Shown here: positions 58,998-62,379 of the stretch, piece by piece | How the letters are laid out: each line of letters opens with the position of its first letter | Numbering within the stretch: the first letter of the stretch is position 1 | Source: a virus | Lineage: Duplodnaviria > Heunggongvirae > Uroviricota > Caudoviricetes | Length of the DNA: 64,000 nt | IMG/VR virus record: IMGVR_UViG_3300032007_000008 | Reading direction: 5' to 3' (one strand) | The notes under the pieces: generated by a model | What the model saw: only the letters and a program-made list of their open reading frames with translations | Database searches by the model: none | What the model was told of the DNA's origin: nothing | Program-made: the position numbers and the translations under genes

Positions 58998-59078
58998 TTA
59001 GGAATGGGATAAAGGTATAAAATAGTTCCACCAAAATCAGAAGCCGAATCCGAAAGGGTTCGGCTTAACTGTTGAAGA

Positions 59079-61302: not shown

Positions 61303-61376
61303 GGGCCGATAGTTCAGTGGTAGAATGCTTCAATGGCATTGAAGAGATGGCGGTTCGATTCCGCCCGTGTCCACCA
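61303..61376 (+). tRNA. tRNA-Ala(GGC)
   Basis: G3:U70, AT-GGC-AT. Confidence 0.87.
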
Positions 61377-61441: not shown

Positions 61442-61521
61442 TTGCGAAAAACGCAGTCATGTGCTATAATAGGCGGCGTTTCCGAAAGGAAGCTGGTTCT
61501 TTGACAATTGAATGTAGATGA
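61442..61521 (+). promoter_or_regulatory. rrn-like promoter with GNRA hairpin and boxA leader (copy 2)
   Basis: TTGCGA-17-TATAAT, AGGCGGCG, TTCC-gaaa-GGAA, same 24-nt TCTTTGACAATTGAATGTAGATGA. Confidence 0.75.
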
Positions 61522-61525
61522 AGAC

Positions 61526-61591
61526 GGGTGTGTAGCTCAAGAAGAGCGTTCGTCTGAAAGATGTGGGTGTGAAATCCCACTACACTCACCA
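61526..61591 (+). ncRNA. 66-nt mini tRNA with collapsed anticodon arm
   Basis: GGGTGTG/TACACTC-ACCA, D stem GCTC/GAGC, TTC-gtct-GAA, T stem GTGGG/CCCAC. Confidence 0.65.
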
Positions 61592-61822: not shown

Positions 61823-61898
61823 AGTCCTGTAAGCTAATTGGATAAACTTCAAGGCTACGAACCTTGTATTCCGGGTTCAAGTCCCGGTGGGACTGCCA
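61823..61898 (+). tRNA. tRNA-Arg(ACG)
   Basis: CT-ACG-AA loop, GCCA. Confidence 0.9.
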
Positions 61899-61905
61899 TT
61901 GCCGA

Positions 61906-62027
61906 AAGACGCACACAGCAATTCAACTTCTAAAATTCACTGTTAATGAAAAGGCGTGGGTTCGAATCCCGCAACCGCACGGCAAAGCGGTTTAGCTTAG
62001 TGGTAGAGCTTTAAAGAAGGCGTCTAG
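61906..62027 (+). ncRNA. ACAGCAA cassette C with circularly permuted tRNA(GTT)
   Basis: AGACGC/GCGTCT enclosing anticodon arm, T arm, loop-closed acceptor stem and D arm in that order. Confidence 0.7.
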
Positions 62028-62263
62028 TTATTTAATTTCATGCAACGGCTGCTGTATCGATGATTTGCAGAATTCAAAGTTCTGTCAACAGACAATGACG
62101 CAATAATCGATATGGTTTTAACAGCGAAAGCCTTTGCAGACTTGCAACCGCCGAGGCAGATGGAGGCGGCGGACGATGGAGGGGTGTCGCTCACCCCGTT
62201 ATCCGTATGAACCATTGGGAGTGCTGCGTCCCGCTCAGCCCGTCGAAGACGGACAACGCAGAT

Positions 62264-62379
62264 AAGTCACATGCAGCAATTAAAATTCTCCACCATTTGG
62301 GGAAATAGCATAATTGGTTAGTGCGTCCGTCGAAAGGCGGAAGGTTCTGGTTCGAATCCAGATTTAAATTGGTGACTTG
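62264..62379 (+). ncRNA. GCAGCAA cassette D with permuted, anticodon-less tRNA
   Basis: AAGTCAC/GTGACTT enclosing TTCTCC-ACCA-ttt-GGGGAA, D arm, GAAA-capped stem, T arm. Confidence 0.7.

What the first reader, a model, noticed from the sequence alone, without database searches (positions are those of the whole stretch)
61906..62027. Circularly permuted tRNA(GTT) inside cassette C
Seen, 5' to 3': anticodon arm TTCA-CT-GTT-AA-TGAA (61936-61950), T arm GTGGG-TTCGAAT-CCCGC (61956-61972), acceptor strands joined by a loop AACCGC-acggcaaa-GCGGTT (61973-61992), TA, D arm GCTT-AGTGGTA-GAGC (61995-62009). This is a full cloverleaf opened between the D and anticodon arms. Known: permuted tRNA genes occur in some algae and archaea and mature via circular intermediates; I know no bacterial or phage pathway for this. 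Inference: an unchargeable Asn-tRNA mimic, or a precursor needing ligation.
Basis: partly seen in the sequence, partly recalled or inferred. Interest (0 to 1): 0.8.

Follow-up and report, generated by a model that had tools for sequence, protein, structure and literature searches.

The report
Phage Y-RNA-like tRNA mimic
The "circularly permuted tRNA" is real, but it is most likely not a tRNA gene: it is the tRNA-shaped part of a small RNA built like bacterial Y RNA (YrlA), from a widespread phage RNA family that travels with a phage protein folded like the RNA-surveillance protein Ro60.

Summary
The whole element is 61907-62025: a 6-bp closing stem, unpaired ACACAGCAA, an anticodon-like hairpin (CUGUUAA), a T arm, a sealed acceptor hairpin and a D arm.

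A covariance model built only from other phages hits it at 73.8 bits, E=1.7e-11. Three more copies lie in the same tRNA array.

The order T arm, closed acceptor, D arm is the known build of YrlA, the bacterial and phage Y RNA that mimics tRNA. Rfam's YrlA model matches only that module, at 30.9 bits against a cut-off of 69.

No canonical Ro60 (TROVE) gene is present. The phage does encode a DUF2828/DUF7788 protein whose predicted fold matches Ro60 structures over its full length. That protein was found in 16 of 17 near-complete phage records carrying such RNAs, and in 1 of 8 without them.

The acceptor has no CCA and is sealed. A normal tRNA-Asn(GUU) exists elsewhere in the genome. So a chargeable or ligation-dependent tRNA is unlikely.

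Best reading: an unchargeable tRNA mimic that partners the Ro60-like protein. The binding is inferred, not shown.

This scan noted the same protein-RNA pairing earlier in at least 49 other genomes. I found it neither in Rfam nor described in the papers I searched.

The parts
61907..61912 (+). P1 closing stem, 5' strand (AGACGC)
   Evidence: Pairs with 62020-62025 in the MFE and centroid folds. In relatives the stem is always paired while its sequence differs.
61913..61921 (+). Unpaired handle motif ACACAGCAA (family consensus N-U-A-CAGCAA)
   Evidence: CAGCA is invariant in the alignment of 31 elements. Position weights from 252 stem-plus-CAGCAA candidates, some of them chance matches, are. 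Presumed protein-binding site (inferred).
61927..61934 (+). P2, 5' strand (CTTCTAAA): weak A/U-rich helix with 62010-62019
   Evidence: Part of the MFE fold. Relatives have a spacer here and an A-rich 3' spacer. Its pairing is not established.
61936..61950 (+). Anticodon-arm-like hairpin TTCA-CTGTTAA-TGAA, loop identical to a tRNA-Asn anticodon loop. It sits where YrlA has its 'V' stem-loop.
   Evidence: In 18 relatives parsed the same way: U33 in 17, A37 in 16, A38 in 16, 7-nt loop, 4-5 nt variable loop.
61951..61955 (+). Variable-loop equivalent AAGGC (C61955 is placed to pair with G15 of the D loop)
   Evidence: Sequence inspection. Matches the tRNA and YrlA Levitt pair logic (PMC4201824).
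61956..61972 (+). T arm GTGGG-TTCGAAT-CCCGC
   Evidence: Rfam YrlA and R1 alignments. Covariation in RNAalifold.
61973..61992 (+). Sealed acceptor-like hairpin AACCGC-ACGGCAAA-GCGGTT, no CCA
   Evidence: The 7-bp stem shows heavy compensatory change in 31 sequences.
61993..62009 (+). U8-A9 and D arm GCTT-AGTGGTA-GAGC
62010..62019 (+). 3' spacer / P2 3' strand TTTAAAGAAG
   Evidence: Relatives are A-rich at this place.
62020..62025 (+). P1 closing stem, 3' strand (GCGTCT)
61442..61470 (+). Promoter-like site (TTGCGA-17-TATAAT with TG) heading the run of tRNA genes that ends just before the element
   Evidence: Consensus match only. Co-transcription with the tRNAs is inferred.

Best explanation
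The 119-nt element at 61907-62025 is a small non-coding RNA transcribed within the phage's tRNA array. It has two modules. The first is a 'handle': a 6-bp stem joining its 5' and 3' ends, followed by unpaired ACACAGCAA. The second is a tRNA-shaped body with the arm order anticodon-like hairpin, T arm, sealed acceptor hairpin, D arm. This arm order is that of YrlA-type Y RNAs. I infer that the handle docks the RNA on the phage's Ro60-like protein (DUF2828/DUF7788, genome 69066-70646, minus strand). The tRNA-shaped body would then be presented as an unchargeable mimic of tRNA-Asn to some factor that recognises tRNA, such as a processing, modification, repair or cleavage enzyme. By analogy with Ro60/Y-RNA particles, the complex would act in RNA surveillance or repair during infection. 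Shown here: the structure, family membership, covariation, the protein's fold, and co-occurrence of RNA and protein. Inferred: expression as a discrete RNA, physical binding, and the biological role.
For: Architecture: Rfam YrlA aligns to the T arm, closed acceptor and D arm module, closed by a stem. YrlA is described with exactly this order, including a fourth hairpin upstream of the T arm (PMC4201824).

Family: a pattern scan and parsing found about 45 elements with the same grammar in unrelated phages. A second scan found 27 more of 31 hits with a GUU loop. The leave-own-out model R1 gives 73.8 bits, E=1.7e-11, and finds three more copies in this phage and one in a cultured Felix O1-like phage. 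T, acceptor and D stems covary.

Partner protein: TROVE is absent, but a DUF2828+DUF7788 gene is present. The vWA MIDAS residues are invariant in its alignment. The model has pLDDT 80. The top 13 Foldseek PDB hits are all Ro60 proteins over their full length, E 1e-8 to 1e-5. A profile search of PDB sequences also ranks Ro60 first.

Co-occurrence: DUF7788 is in 14 of 14 near-complete records carrying permuted-tRNA handle RNAs. In a second set it marks the loci with genuine handle RNAs. Fisher p is about 1e-4. The gene lies within 14 kb of the RNA in 10 of 37 loci.

Cultured phages: in Listeria phage P100 three tandem handle RNAs lie directly upstream of the Ro-like gene, beside RtcB and RNA ligase genes. 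A P100-like phage has three very abundant unannotated transcripts upstream of that gene, which its authors suggested may be Y RNAs (PMC12282133).

Own phage: the Ro-like gene sits between a phosphoesterase gene and AAA ATPase plus RNA ligase genes.
Against: No experiment shows that the handle binds the protein. In this phage the RNA and the protein gene are about 185 kb apart.

The Rfam YrlA score is far below the gathering cut-off, and only the tRNA-like module aligns. The handle motif CAGCAA is not the GNCGAA(N)G motif of YrlA.

One near-complete record with a good element has no Ro-like gene of either type (L050).

The co-occurrence sample comes from one DNA-pattern scan and is not corrected for phage relatedness.

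About a fifth of parsed relatives (9 of 44) encode N-CCA after the acceptor 3' strand. This leaves room for a different fate for some family members.

The folding energy of this copy is not better than shuffles.
Confidence: 0.65

Rival explanations
1. A tRNA decoy that works without the Ro60-like protein. The tRNA-shaped body soaks up a host factor that attacks or modifies tRNA-Asn-like anticodon loops. The handle is only a clamp that sets processing sites and protects the ends.
For: The loop is identical to a tRNA-Asn anticodon loop, and U33, A37 and A38 are kept across relatives. Among close orthologues the three 'anticodon' bases change freely (GAA, ACG, ATG, TAG, GTA) while the stem and the rest of the loop stay fixed. 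This is what an arms race or a specificity module would give. One carrier record lacks any Ro-like gene.
Against: It does not explain the invariant unpaired CAGCAA, the conserved outer bases of P1, or the tight co-occurrence and frequent adjacency with the DUF2828 gene.
Confidence: 0.15
2. A true circularly permuted tRNA gene. The transcript would be cut at the acceptor loop (RNase P plus 3' trimming) or circularised and reopened, giving a chargeable tRNA-Asn, as in permuted tRNA genes of the red alga Cyanidioschyzon merolae.
For: All cloverleaf parts and tertiary-contact bases are present. 9 of 44 relatives carry N-CCA after the acceptor 3' strand followed by a short linker. [quoted passage not shown]
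Against: This copy has no CCA and an 8-nt sealing loop. Two of the four copies in this phage are capped by GAAA-type loops. In an orthologue group the sealing loop UUGGUC is conserved while the stem covaries. A·A stands at 27:43. A stands at the discriminator position, where the phage's own tRNA-Asn has G-CCA. A full set of 38 tRNAs for all 20 amino acids, including Asn(GUU) and Thr(GGU), is already encoded. No bulge-helix-bulge motif and no RtcB were found. The anticodon triplet is not conserved among orthologues.
Confidence: 0.05
3. An ordinary YrlA that uses a canonical Ro60 (Rsr, TROVE) of the host bacterium rather than a phage protein.
For: Sub-threshold YrlA match. GCCGAAAG, which fits the YrlA motif GNCGAAN0-1G, lies at 61901-61908 just 5' of the stem.
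Against: The motif is not seen at that place in the family consensus, where positions -14 to -10 are A/T-rich. So it is probably chance in this copy. The stem part of the YrlA model does not align. YrlA genes lie within 4 kb of Rsr, and no TROVE gene is in this phage or in 35 other carriers. The host is unknown.
Confidence: 0.05
4. A decayed junction of two tandem tRNA genes (3' half of one, 5' half of the next), with no function.
For: Chen et al. mention dimeric tRNAs as possible scorers with their model (text cut off). The Rfam YrlA model gives sub-threshold hits in 6 control genomes.
Against: No remains of the missing halves flank it. The same permuted order with handle recurs in dozens of unrelated phages with compensatory changes.
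Confidence: 0.02

Closest known systems
YrlA, the tRNA-like Y RNA of bacteria and phages bound by Ro60/Rsr (Rfam RF02553; Chen et al. 2014, PMC4201824)
   Same: The 5' and 3' ends are joined in a stem with a conserved unpaired motif on the 5' side. Then come an optional hairpin, a T arm, a closed acceptor-like hairpin and a D arm, with the tRNA tertiary-contact bases kept. The genome encodes a Ro60-fold protein in an RNA-repair-type gene neighbourhood.
   Different: It scores 30.9 bits against a cut-off of 69, and only the tRNA module aligns. The motif is CAGCAA, not GNCGAA(N)G. The protein is DUF2828/DUF7788, which the TROVE profile does not detect. The RNA lies in a tRNA array 185 kb from the protein gene. 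The upstream hairpin is a faithful anticodon arm (7-nt loop, U33, A37, A38). There are several copies per phage with different cargo.
Thermus phage phiLo Ro60 with Yrl1/Yrl2 (PMC12135203)
   Same: A phage-encoded Ro60-fold protein with phage-encoded partner RNAs of stem, bulge-with-motif, stem design. Its structures 9kop and 9l5y are among the best structural matches to this phage's protein.
   Different: phiLo has a canonical TROVE protein and a CGAA motif, and its RNAs lie next to the gene. The text I read mentions no tRNA-shaped cargo.
Circularly permuted tRNA genes of Cyanidioschyzon merolae and other algae and archaea
   Same: The 3' half of the cloverleaf is encoded upstream of the 5' half.
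   Different: Those genes mature through a circular intermediate into chargeable tRNAs that the cell needs. Here the acceptor is sealed, CCA is absent, no splice motif is seen and a normal isoacceptor exists.
Class I RNAs of dictyostelid social amoebae (Rfam RF01414; PMC7919456)
   Same: A short stem joins the 5' and 3' ends. An unpaired conserved 11-nt motif follows the 5' strand, and the rest is variable. The near-invariant positions reported (T3, C6, C9, A10, A11) fit xxUxxCAGCAA.
   Different: The RF01414 model finds nothing in this genome at E up to 10. Class I RNAs are 42-65 nt with no tRNA-like cargo. The paper I read names an RRM protein as binder. The lead came from earlier notes of this scan and is only partly checked.
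Phage T4 stable RNAs C and D (species 1 and 2)
   Same: Unexplained stable RNAs encoded in a phage tRNA cluster, partly tRNA-like.
   Different: No closing stem plus CAGCAA handle and no permuted order in the T4 sequences.

Membership tests
YrlA (Rfam RF02553) | T arm, closed acceptor-like hairpin and D arm in that order, enclosed by a stem joining the RNA's ends | tested here: met
   cmscan alignment to model positions 24-84; MFE fold.
YrlA (Rfam RF02553) | Score at or above Rfam's gathering cut-off (69 bits) over the whole model | tested here: not met
   30.9 bits, partial match. The best copy in the genome reaches 36.2 bits. In the full-length match the stem part is largely deleted.
YrlA (Rfam RF02553) | GNCGAAN0-1G motif near the 5' end (presumed Ro60 contact) | tested here: inconclusive
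   GCCGAAAG at 61901-61908 overlaps the start of P1 in this copy. The family consensus there is A/T-rich, and the conserved motif is CAGCAA.
YrlA (Rfam RF02553) | Encoded within about 4 kb of, and on the same strand as, a TROVE-domain Ro60 gene | tested here: not met
   No TROVE match in this genome or in 35 other carriers. The Ro60-like DUF2828 gene is about 185 kb away on the other strand.
CAGCAA-handle RNAs of phages (not catalogued) | Closing stem of 6-10 bp immediately followed by unpaired NNN-CAGCAA; variable cargo; 3' strand of the stem at the end | tested here: met
   AGACGC / ACACAGCAA / GCGTCT. Same grammar in relatives.
CAGCAA-handle RNAs of phages (not catalogued) | Significant match to a covariance model built without this genome | tested here: met
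   R1 from 24 elements of other phages: 73.8 bits, E=1.7e-11, full length 61907-62029.
CAGCAA-handle RNAs of phages (not catalogued) | Genome encodes a DUF2828/DUF7788 (Ro60-fold) protein | tested here: met
Circularly permuted tRNA genes (algal/archaeal type) | 3' half upstream of 5' half | tested here: met
Circularly permuted tRNA genes (algal/archaeal type) | Processable acceptor ends (discriminator and CCA or trailer, then leader) yielding a chargeable tRNA | tested here: not met
   The 8-nt sealing loop ACGGCAAA has no CCA. In relatives the loop is conserved and the stem covaries. Processing itself cannot be tested with these tools.
Circularly permuted tRNA genes (algal/archaeal type) | Ends form a bulge-helix-bulge motif for a splicing endonuclease and ligase | tested here: not met
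   The flanks form a 6-bp stem, a 14-nt one-sided loop and a weak A/U helix. No RtcB. An Rnl-type RNA ligase gene exists. The endonuclease was not searched for.
Circularly permuted tRNA genes (algal/archaeal type) | Supplies an isoacceptor the genome otherwise lacks | tested here: not met
   Canonical tRNA-Asn(GUU) and 37 other tRNAs are present.
Ro60 / TROVE proteins (for the presumed partner protein) | TROVE (PF05731) sequence match | tested here: not met
   Only weak vWA_Ro60 (E=0.031).
Ro60 / TROVE proteins (for the presumed partner protein) | Helical-repeat ring plus vWA domain with MIDAS; fold match to solved Ro60 | tested here: met
   Invariant D310-x-S312-x-S314, T383 and D415. Foldseek top 13 hits are all Ro60, TM about 0.5, E down to 1.4e-8. 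This is a predicted model, not a solved structure.
Dictyostelid Class I RNA (RF01414) | Match to the Rfam model | tested here: not met
   No hit at E up to 10 in the whole genome.

The most novel reading that the evidence does not exclude
The handle RNAs are a modular display system. One Ro60-like protein carries a set of interchangeable tRNA parts whose 'anticodon' triplets evolve fast. Here these are mimics of tRNA-Asn (GUU) and tRNA-Thr (GGU). The particle would either bait host anticodon nucleases and other tRNA-targeting defences, or select matching damaged tRNAs for repair by the neighbouring RNA ligase and phosphoesterase. That would make this a tRNA-specific counter-defence particle of a kind not yet described, shared by well-studied phages such as Felix O1-like, P100-like and KVP40.
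Probability: 0.2. Interest if true: 0.85.

Novelty: new variant of a known kind. Interest (0 to 1): 0.6.

Why it matters
Ro60/Y-RNA particles are known from animals, some bacteria and a few phages, and the purpose of the tRNA-like module in YrlA is still unknown. This element belongs to a second, much larger branch that is uncharacterised in the sources I searched. Its protein occurs in 710 sequenced phages, including laboratory ones: Felix O1-like, KVP40, P100/A511, and staphylococcal, campylobacter and mycobacterial phages. In that branch the tRNA mimicry goes further, with a faithful anticodon arm whose triplet varies. This gives tractable systems for asking what tRNA mimicry by Y RNAs is for. 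It may also explain the very abundant unannotated transcripts reported in a Listeria phage. For annotation, such elements should not be called permuted tRNA genes or pseudogenes.

Tried and rejected
- **Folding energy as evidence.** z=0.08, uninformative, as is usual for tRNA-like RNAs.
- **ARAGORN and Rfam at gathering thresholds.** Neither reports the element.
- **Near-identical phage DNA.** megablast found only a tRNA-Ser match to Bacillus phage G, so no close named relative was available.
- **Phage T4 RNAs C and D as relatives.** No handle.
- **Canonical Ro60.** TROVE is absent in this phage and in 35 + 3 carrier records.
- **RtcB and T4 Rnl1-type ligase in this phage.** RtcB is absent. 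The Rnl1 search also failed in every control genome, so it is uninformative.
- **Single-sequence structure prediction.** pLDDT 39, unusable, so I repeated it with an alignment.
- **Direct sequence search of the protein against PDB.** Nothing. The profile search gave marginal Ro60 hits.
- **MAFFT alignments.** They could not keep the P1 3' strand in register. The covariance model therefore carries no P1 pairs. P1 and anticodon-stem pairing statistics from my own parse are biased, because pairing was a selection criterion. Only the variety of pair types there is informative.
- **Dictyostelid Class I RNA model.** No hit.
- **Literature.** Searches for permuted tRNA in phages and for DUF2828 gave no relevant description. 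The supplements of Chen et al. 2014 and the 2020 Ro60 review were not available.
Relatives have complete 5-bp hairpins, so the opening is between positions 26 and 27.

Full report
**Context.** The window is part of a 291,479-bp IMG/VR phage record that CheckV rates as complete. From about window position 59000 onward it carries a large tRNA array. ARAGORN finds 38 tRNAs for all 20 amino acids plus a tmRNA in the genome. The finding lies 8 nt after tRNA-Arg(ACG), which spans 61823-61898. A promoter-like site at 61442-61470 lies upstream.

**The observation.** Two things were missed:
- The element is closed by a 6-bp stem: AGACGC 61907-61912 pairs with GCGTCT 62020-62025.
- That stem is followed directly by unpaired ACACAGCAA (61913-61921).

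The opening of the cloverleaf is between tRNA positions 26 and 27. The folding energy is not better than shuffles (z=0.08), so significance must come from comparison with other sequences.

**What it resembles.** An E-value scan against Rfam gives one informative hit: YrlA (RF02553) at 61949-62012, 30.9 bits, E=6.9e-5 locally.
- The aligned model positions 24-84 are exactly a short enclosing stem, T arm, closed acceptor-like hairpin and D arm.
- Chen et al. 2014 (PMC4201824) describe YrlA as a Y RNA bound by the bacterial Ro60 protein. Its central domain mimics tRNA in this order, often with a fourth hairpin upstream of the T arm. It keeps the tRNA tertiary-contact bases. [quoted passage not shown]
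- So a cloverleaf opened at the anticodon side, with a sealed acceptor, is a known design in bacteria and phages.
- The match is far below Rfam's cut-off, and the stem region of the model does not align. The element is therefore not a YrlA by Rfam's criteria.

**A family.** The motif A(C/U)ACAGCAA preceded by a stem recurs between the tRNAs of this phage.
- A pattern scan of viral contigs (CAGCAA, 20-50 nt, T loop), parsed in Python, gave about 45 elements from unrelated phages. They share one grammar: closing stem, NNN-CAGCAA, spacer, anticodon-like hairpin, 4-5 nt variable loop, T arm, 7-bp acceptor closed by a short loop, U8-N9, D arm, an often A-rich spacer, closing stem.
- A second scan that required a YUGUUAA loop gave 31 hits, 27 with the full architecture.
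- RNAalifold on an unbiased MAFFT alignment of 31 elements supports the T, acceptor and D stems. Compensatory changes occur at 14 of 16 pairs.
- A covariance model built from 24 elements of other phages only hits 61907-62029 at 73.8 bits, E=1.7e-11. The next hit in the window scores 29 bits.
- The same model finds three further copies just beyond the window, at window-equivalent 64064-64186, 65075-65200 and 65897-66013. It also finds one in the cultured Felix O1-like Salmonella phage BPS17W1.
- The full grammar occurs three times in the genome under my strict parse and never in five shuffled genomes.

**Is it a tRNA gene?** Most likely not, for this copy.
- The acceptor is sealed by an 8-nt loop without CCA.
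- Position 27:43 is an A·A mismatch.
- The base after the acceptor 3' strand is A. The phage's own tRNA-Asn(GUU) has G followed by CCA and differs in every stem.
- Nothing in the repertoire is missing.
- In one group of close orthologues the sealing loop UUGGUC is conserved while the acceptor stem covaries. The anticodon stem and the loop bases 32, 33, 37 and 38 are fixed, yet the triplet itself reads GAA, GAA, ACG, TAG, GTA and ATG. A decoding tRNA would not behave like that.

Across 18 relatives the hairpin nevertheless keeps anticodon-loop hallmarks: U33 in 17, A37 in 16 and A38 in 16. It is therefore a real anticodon-arm mimic and not merely a variable arm.

Two further observations:
- A second permutation class exists, in which the anticodon arm follows the D arm, so the opening is at 43/44.
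- 9 of 44 parsed relatives encode N-CCA after the acceptor 3' strand. Some members may be recently derived from tRNA genes, or may be processed differently.

**The likely partner.** No TROVE (canonical Ro60) gene is in this phage or in 35 other carrier records. Clustering the ORFs around the RNAs showed one protein in 10 of 37 loci. It carries DUF2828 and DUF7788.

This phage encodes such a protein too, 526 aa, at genome 69066-70646 on the minus strand. The evidence that it is Ro60-like:
- It gives weak Pfam hits to vWA_2 and to the Ro60 vWA domain.
- A 34-sequence alignment has the MIDAS residues invariant.
- A profile search of PDB sequences ranks Ro60 proteins first, at marginal E-values.
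- The AlphaFold model made with that alignment has pLDDT 80.3 and pTM 0.75.
- The model matches only Ro60 structures at the top of a Foldseek PDB search. These are 13 full-length hits: Xenopus and human Ro60, Deinococcus Rsr and Thermus phage phiLo Ro60, E from 1.4e-8 to 1.2e-5. Isolated vWA domains start only at E about 0.03.

Co-occurrence with the RNAs:
- DUF7788 is present in 14 of 14 near-complete records with permuted-tRNA handle RNAs, and in 24 of 35 overall (the rest are fragments).
- In a second set of 48 records reached by the same DNA pattern, 17 are positive. One of those 17 repeats a record from the first set. Twelve of the other 16 are loci where I can see genuine, often tandem, handle RNAs. 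Seven near-complete negatives show only chance matches.
- The table of 16 of 17 against 1 of 8 gives Fisher p of about 1e-4.
- One real exception exists: L050, a 332-kb record with a good element and no Ro-like gene.

**Named phages.** The protein is found in 710 sequenced phage records, often annotated as 'RNA-binding protein' or 'Ro-like RNA binding protein'.
- In Listeria phage P100 three tandem handle RNAs (58, 60 and 110 nt) sit directly upstream of the Ro-like gene gp165. They lie between the tRNA array and genes annotated as tRNA splicing ligase, RNA ligase and phosphohydrolase.
- A 2025 multi-omics study of a P100-like phage reported three very highly transcribed unannotated regions within 2 kb upstream of that gene. 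It detected the protein in virions and speculated that the RNAs might be Y RNAs (PMC12282133). I could not compare coordinates.
- In the Felix O1-like phage the Ro-like gene is followed by the tRNA array with embedded handle RNAs.
- In the present phage the Ro-like gene is flanked by a calcineurin-like phosphoesterase gene, an AAA ATPase gene and an RNA ligase gene.

**Mechanism.**
- *Shown:* a conserved, covarying RNA with a handle and a tRNA-shaped body; a Ro60-fold protein in the same genomes.
- *Inferred:* the handle (P1 plus CAGCAA) is the docking site, by analogy with the stem-plus-motif site of Y RNAs. The body presents an unchargeable tRNA-Asn look-alike. The particle acts in RNA surveillance, repair or counter-defence.
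- For comparison, the phiLo phage Ro60 with its Y-like RNAs binds host PNPase and dampens it (PMC12135203).
- I put about 0.65 on the Ro-like-partner model. I put about 0.9 on the narrower claim that this is a YrlA-style mimic and not a decoding tRNA gene.

**Novelty.** The permuted arm order is known from YrlA. In Rfam and in the papers I could search I found no description of three things: the CAGCAA handle family, its link to DUF2828/DUF7788 proteins, and the faithful, variable anticodon arm.

Earlier notes of this scan report the same protein-RNA pairing in at least 49 other genomes, so it is not new to the scan. They also suggested a likeness to dictyostelid Class I RNAs. The published description (stem joining the ends, then an 11-nt motif with T3, C6, C9, A10, A11; PMC7919456) is compatible. 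However, the Rfam model RF01414 finds nothing here.

Noticed in passing
genome 259494-259832 (window-equivalent 64456-64794, just beyond the window): ARAGORN calls a phage-encoded tmRNA with tag peptide GNDYRMAA* inside the tRNA array.
   Followed up: no
window 61303-61373, 61526-61588, 62303-62365: Rfam tRNA hits above the gathering score that ARAGORN does not call. The last two have shortened anticodon regions (model gaps), so they are tRNA-like RNAs rather than decoders.
   Followed up: no
window 62026-62263: About 236 nt between this element and the next handle element match nothing in Rfam. The stretch is GC-richer and hairpin-rich (for example CCGTCGAAGACGG).
   Followed up: no
L127 6622-6888 (Listeria phage P100, NC_007610 reverse strand): Three tandem CAGCAA-handle RNAs immediately upstream of the Ro-like gene gp165. 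They probably correspond to the three abundant unannotated transcripts reported for the P100-like phage CKA15 (PMC12282133). In the P100 record the tRNA features are annotated on the strand opposite to the neighbouring genes.
   Followed up: partly
L128 (genome 61000-77000): Gene neighbourhood of the Ro-like protein, all on the minus strand: Metallophos phosphoesterase, Ro-like protein, AAA ATPase, RNA ligase (PF09414 with an OB domain). This looks like an RNA-repair module.
   Followed up: partly
L010's record (86-kb complete phage, 73029-74357): Its DUF2828/DUF7788 gene is interrupted by in-frame TGA codons. This could be stop-codon recoding or a broken gene.
   Followed up: no
L033, L081, L062, L096, L111, L077 (orthologous elements): The anticodon triplet is hypervariable (GAA, GAA, ACG, TAG, GTA, ATG). 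The flanking stem TCTTT/AAAGA (ACTTT in L081), loop bases CT..AA and the acceptor-sealing loop UUGGUC stay fixed.
   Followed up: partly
L004, L009, L105, L096:2836-2955, L077:5096-5210, L111:10530-10643: A second permutation class: handle, short hairpin, T arm, acceptor, D arm, then the anticodon arm (opening at 43/44). One loop reads CU-UCA-UG, an opal-reading triplet.
   Followed up: no
window 61901-61908: GCCGAAAG fits the YrlA Ro-binding motif GNCGAAN0-1G and abuts the closing stem. Similar motifs lie 17 and 30 nt upstream of two other elements, but not family-wide, so this is probably chance or GNRA-type hairpins.
   Followed up: partly
genome 266785-266868: The phage's canonical tRNA-Asn(GUU) is 84 nt with a long variable arm, which is unusual for tRNA-Asn.
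   Followed up: no
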